A stretch of DNA of 64,000 bases, from positions 10,798 to 74,797 of the forward strand of contig JBCCQQ010000028.1 of NCBI GenBank assembly GCA_039024555.1, given 5' to 3'. Shown piece after piece: positions 33,201-45,200 of the stretch. Every line of letters begins with the position of its first letter. Position 1 is the first letter of the stretch. Source of the stretch: Cyanobacteria bacterium P01_D01_bin.156 (GTDB taxonomy: Bacteria > Cyanobacteriota > Cyanobacteriia > Phormidesmidales > Phormidesmidaceae). A program made the position numbers.

Positions 33201-36200
33201 AGCCACATACCCGGCATATCATCTGGATTAAAAGATTGCTCATCCACAAGCCAAAAATCAATGCCATAGTCATTAATGACGGACTGCAGTACAGATAGGT
33301 CTGGACTATATTGAGCCCTGATCAAATCCAAAATACGTTGACGAATTTGGCGGTAATACCCTTGATGGTAAGCCAAACTATGACCACGACTTAGCAATAC
33401 TGAGCGTCCCGTAAATGCAGGAATATTCTCAGCCTCCTTAGCAAGAGAAGCAATCAGCGTATCTTTCGATTGCTGTTGAATATACTCGTATAAAACAACA
33501 CGATCGGACTTAATATAGAGAACGTTTAAAAAGCTATTGAGCAGCAAAGGATATCCCACTGTTATCATGGCAACTCCAGCAACCATAGCTATTGCCACCA
33601 GTTGTTTCCAGATCTGTTGCGGTGCACGGTTTAAGCGCTGTAATCCCCAATCCAATAGAGCTATCAGCACCACAGCAGACGCGATCGCAACAATGACCTT
33701 TAACGAATGACGACTATATCGACTGGGTAAATGCAAACGAAATAACACCCCATGGGATAACAAAAATAGAACAAACGAAACAATCCCAAATTGAACAATT
33801 AAGGTACCGTGGCGAGTAATTTTTTTCAGTAGCGGCAACTTCAACCATTGCAATAAAGGAAACAATAGGGAAAAACAAATCGTAGTCGGCACAACGGGGG
33901 GCAGTAATCCACTACGACCTGAGAACAGCCAATATCGTACCCAATCATCATGGAAGTATGAATTTCGCCCCCCTGGTTGAAATTCAGCCATAGTTTTAGC
34001 CTGTTCTAAGGTCACCACAGGACCATAGGGAGACGTGACCAGAACATAGGGCAAAAGGACCAATACAGCTACGATAGCACCAACAATAAACAGCCTAAAA
34101 TGATGTCCTTTACTCCCCTGTGACCAGACGATGCGCAGGGCTAACAACAATACGGAGATGAAGACAAGGTGTGGATAAAACAACCCTTGCAAACAAATCA
34201 CAACAGCGCAGCCAACAAGACTACGCCGAGAAACATAAAATAACAAAGCTAATATTAGCAACACACTAAAGGCCTTTGGCGTGCCGGACGGGAGTTCATC
34301 CCACATCCACAATGCCTGATTAAGAATAAGCGTATTAATAAATGCAATCAGTGGAACAGGAATAACAGCTAGCGCTAGATAAAATGTATATACCGTACCT
34401 AACAGGCAAATAAGGGGGGGCAACAGTTTATGAAATGTCAGCGGATGGATGCCTACCCATGCAGCTAGACGATAGATAGCCTTATAGCCAATAGGAGCCA
34501 CTGACTGAAAATAATCAGCAACCAGGTCACCAGGAAACAGACCAGGATCAACATAGCGCCACATCCAAAACACATGTTGCCGGGCATCATCCTGGATGGC
34601 GTAGGGCTGTTCAAATACAAGTCGCCAAAACAAAATGCCATAGAGCATCGCAAACAGAAGACTTGCAAACAGCCAAACACGCTGATTTTTGAGGGTAGAA
34701 CTCAGGCCATAATGATTGACCCAACTGGCGATAGTTTTCAAGACAGCATTACAAACAAGGTCCGGTCTCATCTTACTAGAGCCAGTGTCCAAAACAGATT
34801 CTACAACCAAGAGAATCCACAACCAGACACCATGTGGATCAGTGCAATGAAGGAGGCCTCGAATCTGAACACCAATTGCGACTACCCGCTCAGATACAAG
34901 TGCTGCTAAGCACCAATAAAAAACAGGACACCTGAATAGATATCCTGTTACACATTTAATCCGTTAACTGTGTAAGCTAAGCAGCTTTAACCAAAACTAG
35001 ATCACCGTCAATAATTGCTTCATAGGAACCGAGAGGATCCGTAGCAGGACCATTAGTTACACTGCCATCTATAGCAAATGTTGACCCATGACAAGGACAT
35101 GCAAAGGCACCATCTTCGAATGCAACGGAACATCCTTGATGAGTACACATAGAATTTAGGGCAATAACGCTGTCAGCACCGGCTGGGTCACGAATGACAA
35201 TCACAGGCCCAGCAATAAAACTCTTTTTAGCCAAAAAACCATTGGCATCTAAGTCAGCAACGCTACCTAGGGCAGCAAAGCCATCTTCACGAGGGGTTTC
35301 ATCGATAGCAGGTGGAGCAGAAGATGCAGCGGGTGCATCACTAGATGCTGTCTCTGGAGCCTTGCAAGCTGCGATCGCAACTGGCAAAGAAGTCGCAATC
35401 ATGCCTAAGCCAACTAAATTACCAAATTCACGACGATTCATAACTCACTTTCCTCTCTCACTAACTGCTGTAACGTCGGATACCAGGCATCTAAACAGGA
35501 GAAAAAGACGAACGCATCGTCTCAGGGCAACCCATTAATTACCAGATGGATTAGAACTCACTACCTGAGCGGGCTCAGCATCTGAAACAAAGACGTTACT
35601 CAACCATCCTTGGTGACGAATGGCCGTAACCAGAACAAATAGCAGATCTAAACCAACAACACCAGCAATCATCATCTCTGAGCCACCGGTTCCAAAGCCA
35701 TAGCTGTGAAGCCCCGTACCTAAAACAAAATTCACGCCGTACCAAGCCATTAGCACTGCATTAAAGGCAACCACGCTAGCAACACTAATCCCAAAGTTGC
35801 CAATCCAACCCACTAAACGACCATGGAGAGGCACCAGATAACACAGCAATGCAATTAATGCCCAGGTTTCTTTTGGATCCCAGCCCCAGAAGCGCCCCCA
35901 GGAAAAATGCGCCCAGATTCCTCCTAAGATAATGCCACCGGTTAATAACAGGACACCCACCTGCAGCACTCGATAGTTCAGCTGAGAAAGCAACTTAATG
36001 CGAGAAGTCGCGTTGGGGGTAAATAAATAACTCCCCAAGGCCACATGGCCTAAACCAAGTGCTAGGGCAAAACTGGCATAGCTGAGCGCAATGGTCGGTA
36101 CATGAATACTCAGCCAGAAATTATCCCGTAGCACCGGCACTAGAGGAGAAATGCTGGGATCTAAAACAGCCGGTAGACTGTCAGCCAAAATTAAACACAC

Positions 36201-42200: not shown

Positions 42201-45200
42201 TTGACCGACCTCCAACCCTTGAAATGGAGACCTTCGACTTGATGAAGGCTGCTGAGGCAAGGAGATCGGGCAATGACTCTGAGTAACAGTAAATTGTTGC
42301 TCGGACCCCTCTGTGTGGCTTGGCCACATTTGCATTGAAACCTTTTGACCAGGGCCTTCAATATCTAAATGTAGCCAAGAGCGACATACCCGGATGTACC
42401 AGGAGACAATCGATAAATGATAGCTAATTTATTTCAGCGCATTCGCGCTAGGACAATTGCCTTATTGGGTCTAGCAGCTGCAGTATGTTTCACGGCTGTT
42501 GCGTGCAGCGGTGGCAGTTCAACTGTTGCTACAGCAGGACCCAGTATTTCCCCCGACTTAGTTGCTGACTACATTCATACTGTGTTAGCAGCTGACCGTA
42601 CGGCCTATACTAAGCACGTTGTAAACCGTGTTAAGACCCTCGAAGGTAAAGCCAAAGAAAAAGGCGTACTAGAGGTTGAGTCTACAGAAGGTTGGCAACA
42701 GACTGATGGTATTCCTCTACCCGCTCAAATGTTCCGTCTAGGTTCCGAGATCGCTAACGAGTCTGGTTATTTCACCTATAATCTCATCTCTACTTGGTAC
42801 ATCAACGACAACCATGGTCCCAAGAGCGATTTTGAAACAGTTGCGCTAGCTGAAATGGAAGCTAGTGGTGAAGCTTACAAGGATTATCAAGAGGTTGGTG
42901 GTCAGGCATATTTCTCTGCTATGTACCCTGATAAAGCCGTAGCTGAAGCTTGTGTGACTTGCCACAACACTCATCCTATTCACCTTGAGCGCTATCCTGA
43001 CAAGCAGTTTGAAATGGGTGAAGTAATGGGTGGTGTAGTTATCAACATTCCCGTTGATAGCATGCCTGCTTCCTAAGTAGCGGATCTGTTTCATTCTGTC
43101 TCCCTAAATAATAGCGATGGGAGTTTTCAGACATATAAGGTATGGCTTCATATTTTGAGAAGCTATACCTTATTGCAGGTTTTGGCTTTGCTGATTTCTA
43201 AGGTTTTTGAATCTAGCGTATGGTTTTGTGCGCAATATTTTTGACAGATTGATTCATCTTTTGAGTCATCAACAGCTTTTGTTAAATCACTCACCACTTG
43301 TCCCCTAGGGTAATGAAGCCTAAATTTTCCACCCTGATTATATTGACATTATTGAGCGCACTACTTTTGGTGCCTTTTGTTGTCAGCCCCATATATTTGG
43401 ACATGCTGCGAGAGCGGTCCATTGAACTGCATCACTTTATTCGGGGTGAAGTTTATAAGCAAGCCACTGGTTATGTTGCCCTCGCCTTTGTGGTTATAGA
43501 AATGCTCTTATCGCTACGTAAACGAGGTCGTAGCTGGATAGGAAAAATTAAGCTCCCCGGTTCTGTCATATGGTGGCGGGTTTCTCATATATTTTTAGGT
43601 GTGGCTCTGTTAGCCGTGGTTTTAGTTCATACCATTGGAGCGACTGGTCTGAATTTTAATGCAATCTTTCTATGGGTATTTTTTGCAGTCACCCTATCAG
43701 CGTTAGTGGGTGTGGTAGCAGAAACAGGCGTTTTGGAATCTCCACGTAAGTTATTTGGTTTGCCTGGCAATAAAGAGTTAACAATCACCAAAGGTCCTTT
43801 GATTAGAAATATGCGAGCCATTTGGTTACCCACTCACATTTTTCTTGTGAGTGTTTTTGTTTTAATGCTTGGTATCCATATTTTTCTCGCTTATTACTAC
43901 CGTTAGGGAGATATTAGTGGATGGTTTCTAGTTCTGAAAAAGTAGCTGATGGCGCATCAAAGCCCTGGTTTAAAGGATTGATTGTCGGCATAGCCCTTAT
44001 GGCTGCAATTATTGTCACCCTATTCATAACTCGCCCTGCGGCTACCAGTACCAGCTTTGCTCCTTTGTCTGGGCTGGTTACCCTGAAGGCCATGGCCAAT
44101 GAAAGCGTTGCCTACGGAGATGCGATCGCTTCTGAGAAGCCTATTTTTTTGGAATTTTATGCAGACTGGTGTACCACATGCCAAGGCATGTCTGGAACAA
44201 TCGCCGATCTACATCAAACCTACGGCAACAATATTGAATTTGTCATGCTTGATATTGATGATCCCCAGTGGGCTCCGCAAGTTTTAGAGTATGGAGCTTC
44301 GGGCGTACCCCAATTCACTCTTCTGAATGGGCACCATGAAGAAGTAAATACATGGGTAGGAAAAGTCCCTAAGCCTATTCTGGCAAACGTTTTTGAGCAG
44401 CTAGTTGGGTAAGTTATTGCAATGACTCTATTAGATCGGTTTCTAAAATTATTAGAATTCCTAGAAACAGCCCAGGACGCCTTTGAGTTTTTAACGGACC
44501 CCATAGGCTTATCTGGAGTATTGGCCATTTGCCTTTATTTCCCGATTCAAAGCTTAGGGTGTGACTCACCGGCAGCAGCTACTCTGGCCTGTTCAGCAGC
44601 TCTTACATTCTTCTGTTTAGTAGAAAAACCAAAGTTTTAAGCAGGGAGCAATAACACAACAAGTGGCAGCCAGACACAACAAATCAGTTTTTGCTCAGCC
44701 ACGCTTAGGCTTTCCACCCAAAAACTCAGTAGCTTTATGGGCATGATGTACAACAGCATGTCATAAAGCTACTGAGTTCTAATTAGGCAAACTAGTTTTG
44801 AATACCTAGTCTATCGAGGTAAATTCAGCACTCCATTTTGATTCAACCACTGAACCTGATTATCTGTGAGACCTTGAACATCAGTAAATATAGCACCAGA
44901 CACTTTGGCATCAGTCAAATCTACGGCTGTTAAGTTAGCGTTTTCAAGGTTTGCCTGCTGCAAATTGACTCCAGCAAGGTTTGCCCCGGCTAGATTCGCT
45001 CTTTCCAGATCAGCACCCATCAGAGAAGCCCCTGTCCAATCCGTTTCGACCAAGTTAGCACTATTAAACTTTGCCCAGTCTGCTTGGGAGCCCATTAAAA
45101 CAGCACCGGTCAGATGGGCAGCAGACAAGTTAGCATTAAGCAAGTTGGCATCAATAAACTTAGAACCTTCAAGATTTGCATTGATCAAACATGTTGCTTC

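What a model noticed while it worked through the whole genome (the two positions that open the first line are those of the whole stretch)
34977..44412. Conserved Rieske / multiheme cytochrome c / tandem-globin gene cluster with its own cytochrome c maturation pair
A nine-gene cluster encodes a membrane-anchored cytochrome with four CxxCH and one CxxxxCH motif (NrfH/NapC-like size and topology), a secreted hexaheme cytochrome related to the hydroxylamine-oxidoreductase/nitrite-reductase family, a c-heme Tll0287-like protein, a histidine-rich multi-helix membrane protein, a Tat-signal Rieske protein, a membrane-anchored protein of two globin domains, a thioredoxin-like protein and a second, divergent CcsB/CcsA (ResB/NrfI-like) heme-lyase pair beside the housekeeping one. 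I read it as an undescribed quinol-linked periplasmic or lumenal electron-transfer complex of cyanobacteria, most likely turning over a nitrogen oxide (NO, hydroxylamine or nitrite), wi [...]
Evidence so far: Genes g02908-g02916, C28:45774-55209. Heme motifs: g02912 213 aa, N-terminal hydrophobic helix, CxxCH at 58, 73, 108, 130 + CWTAGCH; g02913 269 aa, six CxxCH; g02914 one CxxCH; g02912 and g02913 are the only 2 of 5691 proteins with >=3 CxxCH. Pfam: Cytochrom_c3_2, Cytochrome_C554, Cytochrome_C7, MtrC/MtrF-like (below cut), Rieske 5e-13, Globin x2, Tll0287-like, ResB, Cytochrom_C_asm. PDB by sequence: g02913 best = HAO-like protein 6h5l (E 5e-8), then NrfA and octaheme nitrite reductases (E 0.005-0.02); g02912 no hit below E 0.005. 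g02909 best Swiss-Prot = NrfI 28.6%; canonical ccsA g01279 (72%) and ccsB g02255 (64%) lie elsewhere. g02908 starts MNRREF (twin-Arg); g02915 has several hydrophob [...]
(Added by a program. Inside this text positions count along the whole contig: contig position 10,798 is position 1 of the stretch shown here. "Call 12" and the like, gene names such as g00115 and contig names such as C1 are that model's own, and its searches are not shown. The text may have been shortened before it was handed on; [...] marks where a part breaks off. The agent that wrote the report below was given it as the finding of a first reader that could run no searches.)

Follow-up and report, generated by a model that had tools for sequence, protein, structure and literature searches.

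The report
Nitrogen-controlled heme wire across cyanobacterial membrane
Nine genes in a filamentous cyanobacterium appear to build a chain of iron-containing heme groups running from the cytoplasm across the membrane to the outside, switched on by the cell's nitrogen-shortage regulator; it probably handles nitric oxide or nitrite made during nitrate use, and I found no published description of it.

Summary
All nine genes and heme motifs are real. The penta- and hexaheme are halves of one 11-heme protein, fused in 62 of 152 homologues, with 11 conserved spare histidines and no HAO catalytic heme 4: a wire, not NrfH plus HAO. This scan reported the split wire before on other DNA. New here: (i) in 47 of 73 non-cyanobacterial loci the 4-His membrane protein is fused to a NirB-type FAD/NADH-[2Fe-2S] module without the siroheme half, which points to outward electron flow from cytoplasmic reductant, not quinol; (ii) 16 of 29 long loci lie among nitrate-assimilation genes, three directly behind an ANTAR regulator; (iii) an NtcA-type promoter with exact 22-nt spacing stands before the operon in 35 of 50 cyanobacterial loci against 36 of 3396 control genes. 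Best reading: a nitrogen-regulated trans-membrane electron conduit ending at a Cache-fold heme protein, paired with a tethered globin, dealing with NO/nitrite. The substrate and the cyanobacterial donor (ferredoxin?) are inferred. No description found in ten literature searches.

The parts
34977..35441 (-). PetC3-like Rieske [2Fe-2S] protein, twin-Arg signal and invariant Cys26 (probable lipoprotein)
   Evidence: Pfam Rieske; best PDB 5cxm, E 3e-17, which PMC10172866 names PetC3; Cys26 and all cluster ligands in 36 of 36 rows; no Rieske homologue in the non-cyanobacterial metagenome loci
35535..37250 (-). Second, long CcsA (system II heme lyase)
   Evidence: PF01578, TIGR03144 below cut-off; housekeeping copy on contig C7
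37318..39114 (-). Second, divergent CcsB/ResB
   Evidence: PF05140; housekeeping copy on C19
39196..39211 (.). Second NtcA-like box, about 97 nt before ccsB (one mismatch); no canonical -10 at 22 nt
   Evidence: Same position in close relatives; exact GTA-N8-TAC in 14 of 42 ccsB upstream regions, 22-nt -10 spacing in 0 of 42
39491..39532 (+). NtcA-type activated promoter of the globin-cytochrome operon: GTA-N8-AAC, 22 nt, TAN3T -10 box
   Evidence: 35 of 50 upstream regions at spacing 22, 0-4 at every other spacing 14-31; 36 of 3396 control ORFs; the genome's own nirA has the same layout
39828..40817 (+). Tandem single-domain (flavohemoglobin-type) globin, no signal peptide, C-terminal membrane anchor
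   Evidence: Pfam Globin x2, Hmp N-domain match; PDB 3wfw, 3s1i, 1vhb; anchor in 44 of 54 homologues, 1-3 globin domains
40824..41480 (+). Pentaheme cytochrome c (4 CxxCH + CX4CH), N-terminal helix; N-half of the 11-heme wire; likely start ATG 40839
   Evidence: overlaps the next gene by ATGA
41477..42286 (+). Hexaheme cytochrome c, HAO-like core lacking hemes 1 and 4; C-half of the 11-heme wire
   Evidence: Colinear with 6h5l 120-287 but no counterpart of the motif just before heme 5; HAO fold Z 7.2, rmsd 3.8, 189 aligned
42417..43076 (+). Tll0287-like (sCache_heme) monoheme protein, lipobox-like Cys30, no distal-ligand Cys, invariant Met105; likely end of the wire
   Evidence: PF11845; fused to the 11-heme protein in P0002; adjacent in 60 of 73 non-cyanobacterial loci
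43298..43906 (+). Five-helix membrane protein with His97/111/180/194: putative diheme b; elsewhere fused to a NirB-type FAD/NADH-[2Fe-2S] module; likely start ATG 43313
   Evidence: Four His in 57 of 57 cyanobacterial and 24 of 24 mixed rows; 30% identity, E 2e-14, to the C-domain of L140:7947-9965; weak DUF4405/Ferric_reduct/b561 hints in homologues
43921..44412 (+). Membrane-anchored CxxC thioredoxin, probably the thiol reductase for apocytochrome maturation
   Evidence: PF00085, weak ResA/DsbE matches; absent from non-cyanobacterial loci; role inferred

Best explanation
A nitrogen-regulated trans-membrane electron conduit that serves nitrate/nitrite assimilation. Cytoplasmic reductant (NAD(P)H via a fused NirB-type FAD/[2Fe-2S] module in most non-cyanobacteria; inferred to be ferredoxin in cyanobacteria, which lost that module) reduces the inner heme of a ferric-reductase-like diheme-b protein; electrons cross to the outer heme, run along an 11-heme, probably all bis-His wire (split here into a penta- and a hexaheme) and reach the Cache-fold heme-c lipoprotein, the likeliest exchangeable-ligand site, and possibly the PetC3-like Rieske. 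In parallel the membrane-tethered globin, on the inner face, uses the same cytoplasmic reductant to turn NO into nitrate. The module would remove, and possibly recover as nitrogen, the NO/nitrite formed when nitrate is assimilated. CcsA, CcsB and the thioredoxin were recruited to load twelve c hemes. Shown by sequence: parts, fusions, His counts, promoter, gene context. Inferred: heme b binding, topology, direction, ferredoxin as donor, periplasmic location, and the substrate. I put the conduit-under-nitrogen-control part at about 0.8 and NO/nitrite as substrate at about 0.6 of that.
For: Fusion of both cytochromes in 62 of 152 listed proteins; AF2 model of a natural fusion pLDDT 91, pTM 0.89. 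Eleven conserved non-motif His for eleven hemes (52-61 of 61 rows each). Membrane domain in one ORF with a NirB N-terminal module in 47 of 73 loci, NirB match ending at model position 466-470 of 794; the only two complete stand-alone copies (L063, L066) are followed by a NirA, ferredoxin-type by best match in L066, keep the cyanobacterial gene order (L066 with the globin), and branch near the cyanobacterial clade. Nitrate-assimilation genes in 16 of 29 loci of 10 kb or more; REC-ANTAR gene directly upstream in L078, L096, L115. Globin in 27 and truncated globin in 4 of 73 loci; one fusion with an H-NOX domain. NtcA-type promoter 35 of 50 vs 36 of 3396; exact box 32 of 52 vs shuffle mean 4.6, maximum 9. 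No truncated globin, HCP or NorB-like hit in this 99%-complete genome; truncated globin in 3 of 67 carriers vs 21 of 73 non-carriers of the family (kin not independent). Precedent: NasT-regulated narK-bjgb-flp-nasC detoxifies NO made by nitrate assimilation (PMC4724949).
Against: No catalytic site is demonstrated; a stand-alone Tll0287 relative bound NO only weakly (10.64898/2026.02.01.703092). No cyanobacterial donor is encoded in the cluster; NirB occurs in only 13 of 67 carriers. 65 of 67 carriers keep NirA, so it is no replacement nitrite reductase. Only 1 of 60 cyanobacterial loci has nirA nearby. 13 of 29 long non-cyanobacterial loci show no nitrate gene, and 46 of 73 no globin hit (many are short). 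Only 7 of the 35 promoter boxes are the strict GTA-N8-TAC; 21 end in CAC, 7 in AAC, so another CRP-family factor is possible; about half of the 35 come from close kin. NtcA control signals nitrogen shortage generally, also N2 fixation (two nifH here).
Confidence: 0.5

Rival explanations
1. Inward wire: in cyanobacteria electrons enter from the outer side (PetC3-like Rieske or an oxidised substrate), pass the 11 hemes and the diheme b, and keep the tethered globin reduced for NO dioxygenation.
For: Loss of the flavin module coincides with gain of a globin membrane anchor (44 of 54) and of the Rieske (35 of 60 loci).
Against: The ancestral partner is an NADH module; PetC3 is +135 mV (PMC10172866) and multi-bis-His wires are usually low potential (established knowledge), which disfavours inward flow; some cyanobacterial globins lack the anchor.
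Confidence: 0.15
2. Electron safety valve or O2 scavenger under nitrogen shortage: surplus reductant is exported to high-potential carriers and oxidases, or globin and wire lower O2 near nitrogenase.
For: Small c5-like cytochrome in 13 of 73 loci and a CoxB-like protein in 3; NtcA promoter; two nifH in this genome.
Against: Non-cyanobacterial copies lie with nitrate transport and ANTAR genes, not nif; an H-NOX fusion points to NO, though H-NOX can also bind O2.
Confidence: 0.13
3. Reductive metal (iron) acquisition or outward electron transfer to supply the Fe-rich nitrate-assimilation enzymes.
For: Diheme layout resembles ferric reductases (weak PF01794 hint, E 0.06); multiheme wires are typical of metal reduction; porin genes in 9-12 loci.
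Against: No outer-membrane conduit gene in the cyanobacterial operon; the porins sit with nitrate ABC transporters; does not explain the globins.
Confidence: 0.1
4. One reading: a quinol-oxidising NrfH/NapC-like tetra/pentaheme feeding an HAO/NrfA-like catalytic hexaheme.
For: N-terminal helix; HAO-like fold of the hexaheme; His152 and Asp150 sit where HAO has its distal His/Asp pair (recalled) and are conserved (61 and 52 of 61); one database name 'NrfA- nitrite reduction protein'.
Against: No NapC/NirT family match; heme-4 motif and CxxCK absent; His count allows every heme to be six-coordinate.
Confidence: 0.07

Closest known systems
Bradyrhizobium japonicum narK-bjgb-flp-nasC / nirA-nasST system (PMC4724949)
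   Same: Single-domain globin plus an NAD(P)H flavoprotein co-regulated with nitrate assimilation by an ANTAR regulator; NO detoxification.
   Different: No membrane diheme, no multiheme wire, no Cache-fold heme protein there; here the flavoprotein is fused to a membrane domain or lost.
NirB (NADH nitrite reductase large subunit)
   Same: The non-cyanobacterial membrane subunit carries NirB's FAD/NADH and BFD-type [2Fe-2S] half.
   Different: The siroheme half is replaced by a 5-helix 4-His domain; absent altogether in the window's protein.
Ferric-reductase-like transmembrane systems (NOX/FRE, MsrQ with Fre; recalled)
   Same: Two His pairs 14 apart on helices 3 and 5; cytoplasmic NAD(P)H-flavin donor; outward electron flow.
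   Different: Flavin module of NirB type and N-terminal; acceptor is an 11-heme cytochrome; only sub-threshold profile similarity.
HAO / octaheme family (Kustc0458 6h5l, 4n4j, 4qo5)
   Same: Fold and order of hemes 2,3,5,6,7,8 in the hexaheme.
   Different: No heme 1, no catalytic heme 4, no C-terminal helical bundle; preceded by an unrelated pentaheme.
Tll0287 / sCache_heme family (10.64898/2026.02.01.703092)
   Same: PF11845 stand-alone domain with CxxCH.
   Different: No distal Cys; here it has a constant genetic partner (11-heme wire), including a fusion, which the passages I read do not mention.
Undecahemes UetJ, OccP, UndA
   Same: Eleven c hemes; the uet cluster also carries its own ccsAB.
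   Different: Described as extracellular, with porin/NHL partners (OccP 922 aa); no NirB-type, globin or nitrate context in the passages read; sequences not compared.

Membership tests
NapC/NirT/NrfH | Match to the NapC/NirT family profile | tested here: not met
   No such Pfam or NCBIfam row up to E 0.1; no NrfH among PDB hits
NapC/NirT/NrfH | Tetraheme with first motif CxxCHxM (recalled) | tested here: not met
   Five sites; first motif followed by E-G
NapC/NirT/NrfH | Quinol oxidation | not testable with these tools
   Needs assay
HAO / octaheme oxidoreductases | HAO-type fold | tested here: inconclusive
   Z 7.2, rmsd 3.8, 189 aligned to 4n4j; top five rows all HAO/octaheme, but Z under 8; Foldseek E 0.014; model is of homologue P0007
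HAO / octaheme oxidoreductases | Eight hemes with five-coordinate catalytic heme 4 (PMC8042395) | tested here: not met
   Six motifs; the 6h5l motif before heme 5 has no counterpart
NrfA / ONR | CxxCK catalytic heme | tested here: not met
   None in the window proteins or in 152 homologues
NirB | Siroheme/4Fe-4S half | tested here: not met
   Fusion proteins match only positions 1-470 of 794, no NIR_SIR Pfam; window protein has neither half
Ferric-reductase-like diheme b | Two pairs of membrane His, 13-14 apart | tested here: met
   H97/H111 and H180/H194 invariant
Ferric-reductase-like diheme b | Profile match above cut-off | tested here: not met
   None for the window protein; homologue E 0.06
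Ferric-reductase-like diheme b | Binds two b hemes | not testable with these tools
   Needs spectroscopy
Flavohemoglobin | Globin fused to FAD/NAD reductase | tested here: not met
   Only globin domains match NF009805
sCache_heme (Tll0287-like) | PF11845 with CxxCH | tested here: met
   E 2.6e-20, above cut-off
PetC3-type Rieske | Closest to 5cxm; twin-Arg signal with conserved Cys; short, no b6f large domain | tested here: met
   orthology against the paralogue on C50 not resolved
NtcA-activated promoter | GTA-N8-TAC-like box, 22 nt, TAN3T (PMC9430850, PMC5714215) | tested here: met
   One mismatch in the window; spacing peak 35 of 50
NtcA-activated promoter | NtcA binding and nitrogen-dependent transcription | not testable with these tools
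   Needs EMSA and expression data

The most novel reading that the evidence does not exclude
A new class of nitrogen-oxide reductase: a NirB whose siroheme half was exchanged for a trans-membrane heme wire, delivering cytoplasmic electrons to an outer-face Cache-fold heme that reduces NO, nitrite or hydroxylamine to ammonium, so that nitrogen-starved cyanobacteria and heterotrophs harvest these oxides from their surroundings as a nitrogen source.
Probability: 0.2. Interest if true: 0.92.

Novelty: categorically new. Interest (0 to 1): 0.78.

Why it matters
Multiheme wires are not expected in oxygenic phototrophs (2 of 300 other genomes of the phylum sample carry this one, but 67 of 140 in this family). 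The fusions and the promoter turn an anonymous heme cluster into a testable system: a path for photosynthetic or NADH electrons to the outer face of the membrane under nitrogen control. If it turns over NO or nitrite it adds a step to the nitrogen cycle of benthic mats and symbioses, gives a partner and role to two orphan proteins (stand-alone Tll0287 domains, PetC3-type Rieske) and a donor for single-domain globins. It would also be a native candidate route for electron export from cyanobacteria. The parts belong to known classes; the assembly fails membership of each known system tested.

Tried and rejected
AF2 on the hexaheme alone failed (pLDDT 49); a natural fusion folded well, but coordinates are not returned, so ligands could not be read, and the N-half was not searched alone (no structural match is therefore no finding). 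Complex prediction of membrane protein with both cytochromes and two hemes: no verdict. No RNA holder listed for the operon. Plasmid search found only Tll0287-like domains. 'Longer' homologue search missed most fusions because they are under 537 aa. ESM Atlas gave only unnamed or generic clusters. Rejected: replacement for NirA (65 of 67 carriers keep it); dependence on NirB (13 of 67) or NO synthase (5 of 67); CRP-type GTG-N8-CAC promoter (0 of 50); CX4CH as a unique catalytic heme (plain CxxCH in 14 homologues); identity with UetJ/OccP (different context; passages only). Literature searches without a description of this cluster: (open-licence PMC and bioRxiv only). Adjacent LysR and cupin genes follow the cluster only in 13 close relatives and were left out.

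
Full report
Observation. The nine ORFs, their strands and heme motifs are as described. The two cytochrome genes overlap by ATGA and are the only real multiheme genes of the 6.6-Mb genome. A housekeeping ResB and CcsA lie elsewhere. The hexaheme retrieved 62 GTDB loci, 60 of them close relatives at 53-85% identity, mostly labelled filamentous or benthic cyanobacteria. The order globin-pentaheme-hexaheme-Tll0287-membrane protein is nearly constant; ccsB-ccsA-Rieske and the thioredoxin are linked but mobile. It occurs in 2 of 300 other genomes drawn across the phylum and in 67 of 140 genomes of the family.

The cytochromes are one split wire. Of 152 proteins listed by the two homologue searches, 62 hold both halves in one chain of mostly 400-500 aa. 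The fifth site is CX4CH in most and CxxCH in 14. An AF2 model of one natural fusion is confident (pLDDT 91, pTM 0.89). Its C-half aligns to HAO-family structures (Z 7.2, rmsd 3.8, 189 residues; a middling score). In the sequence alignment to Kustc0458 (6h5l) the hexaheme matches motifs that I number 2, 3, 5, 6, 7 and 8 by counting back from the last; the motif at the place of heme 4 has no counterpart. Heme 4 is the five-coordinate catalytic heme of that family (PMC8042395, passages). No CxxCK occurs. Across 61 fusions eleven non-motif histidines are conserved (five in the N-half, six in the C-half; 52-61 of 61 rows), enough to make all eleven hemes bis-His. That is arithmetic, not a structure: His152, at the position of HAO's distal His (recalled), and Met214 could have other roles. 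Earlier notes of this scan reached the split-wire reading on other DNA; I tested it independently.

The membrane protein reveals the donor. It has five helices and four invariant histidines in two pairs 14 apart, the layout of ferric-reductase-type diheme b domains (recalled; only weak profile hints). I fetched 80 metagenome loci with the fusion alignment and set aside 7 that are cyanobacterial by identity. The remaining 73 carry no taxon label; one relative is named Thermoanaerobaculia. In 47 of the 73 the membrane domain is the C-terminus of a roughly 660-aa protein whose N-part is the FAD/NADH and BFD-type [2Fe-2S] half of NirB, without the siroheme half (5 of the 47 are partial or variant). 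Seven more are cut by a contig end; two (L063, L066) are complete stand-alone copies. Both are followed by NirA, and L066 has the cyanobacterial order globin-cytochrome-Tll0287-membrane protein. In a FastTree of 86 hexaheme domains the 11 cyanobacterial rows form one clade (support 1.0) next to P0008, then L063/L066 (0.9, 0.8; midpoint root). The fusion places the N-terminus in the cytoplasm, in line with basic inner loops, so one His pair faces in and one out. I infer outward flow from NAD(P)H, and in cyanobacteria from ferredoxin, by analogy with their ferredoxin-dependent NirA and NarB. No call shows this.

Nitrogen control. Among the 29 non-cyanobacterial loci of 10 kb or more, 16 carry nitrate ABC-transporter, NirA, NirBD, NasC or REC-ANTAR genes (19 of all 73). 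The ANTAR gene stands directly before the module in L078, L096 and L115. The Tll0287-like gene is present in 60 of 73, a globin in 27, a truncated globin in 4, a c5-like cytochrome in 13. One protein fuses the 11-heme chain to the Tll0287 domain, another adds an H-NOX domain to the flavin-membrane protein. In cyanobacteria only 1 of 60 loci has nirA nearby, but the promoter speaks: an exact GTA-N8-TAC lies within 700 nt of the globin start in 32 of 52 regions (shuffles: mean 4.6, maximum 9; genome control 410 of 3396). After dropping two loci where the globin is not the first gene, the layout GTA-N8-xAC, 22 nt, TAN3T is found in 35 of 50, against 0-4 at all other spacings from 14 to 31 and 36 of 3396 control ORFs; the genome's own nirA has it too. 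In the window it spans 39491-39532. This is the canonical NtcA-activated layout (PMC9430850 and PMC5714215, passages). Caveats: I relaxed the third-last base after seeing the sites; only 7 of 35 are strict; about half are close kin.

End points. The globin has no signal peptide, resembles single-domain and flavohemoglobin-type globins and is anchored at its C-terminus in 44 of 54 homologues. The genome has no truncated globin, HCP or NorB-like hit. Within the family, truncated globins occur in 3 of 67 carriers and 21 of 73 non-carriers, a lineage-confounded pattern. The Tll0287-like protein lacks any Cys that could be the distal ligand and has an invariant Met105. A preprint (10.64898/2026.02.01.703092; parts 1-2 of 6 and passages; supplements not seen and may list these proteins) reports that a stand-alone member is redox-like (+123 mV) and binds NO weakly, which argues for carrier rather than catalyst. 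The Rieske is closest to PetC3, a plasma-membrane lipoprotein of +135 mV whose mutant showed disturbed nitrogen metabolism (second-hand, PMC10172866 passages). Carriers keep NirA (65 of 67) and mostly lack NirB (13 of 67) and NO synthase (5 of 67), so the module is an accessory, not a substitute.

Verdict. Most likely a nitrogen-regulated conduit from cytoplasmic reductant through diheme b and eleven c hemes to an outer-face Cache-fold heme, coupled to a globin, for handling NO/nitrite from nitrate assimilation, as the simpler Bjgb-Flp system does in Bradyrhizobium (PMC4724949, abstract and one discussion section). Confidence 0.5 overall; about 0.8 for the conduit under nitrogen control. Described undecahemes (UetJ, OccP; passages) have other contexts. 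Ten searches of open-licence PMC and bioRxiv found no description; subscription papers were not searched. PMC6104048 (abstract only) prompted the NO-synthase check.

Noticed in passing
L143:11111-14209 (G000 C5:141110-144208), - strand: Full-length NADH-type nirBD in a cyanobacterium (63% identical to a metagenomic NirB); found in 15 of 140 family genomes, 13 of them carriers of the heme cluster.
   Followed up: partly
L144:4780-12189 and L146:477-2717: nirA (with C-terminal 2Fe-2S-like extension)-narK-narB operon with an NtcA promoter, plus a second near-identical narB at a contig start; the genome also has two nifH.
   Followed up: partly
L145:7730-8179 (G000 C50:11729-12178): A second PetC3-like Rieske, 60% identical, behind a peroxidase-like diheme cytochrome and an adenylate-cyclase-like gene.
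   Followed up: no
window 33050-34822, - strand: 590-aa multi-helix membrane protein with no Pfam or NCBIfam match, directly downstream of the Rieske in 12 close relatives.
   Followed up: no
window 31011-33032, + strand: 673-aa ORF that looks like a glycine-oxidase/thiazole-synthase (ThiO-ThiG) fusion, judged by eye from the translation.
   Followed up: no
window 44811-47482: Pentapeptide-repeat gene, LysR regulator and a divergent 166-aa unassigned gene; LysR and the small gene follow the cluster in 13 close relatives only.
   Followed up: partly
L057 (Prochloron sp.): Cluster looks degraded or rearranged: no intact pentaheme ORF, short Tll0287-like ORF, globin moved behind the membrane gene.
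   Followed up: no
L077:5907-8486; L131:723-3323; L119:6148-9987: Variant donors: H-NOX fused to the flavin-membrane protein; a cNMP-binding/BFD/FNR-type version; a 1280-aa version with an unassigned extension.
   Followed up: partly
L037:2985-3560: One 192-aa ORF matches both the globin start and the Rieske; possibly a remnant or assembly artefact.
   Followed up: no
P0001 (831 aa): MFS transporter fused to the 11-heme protein, single sequence.
   Followed up: no
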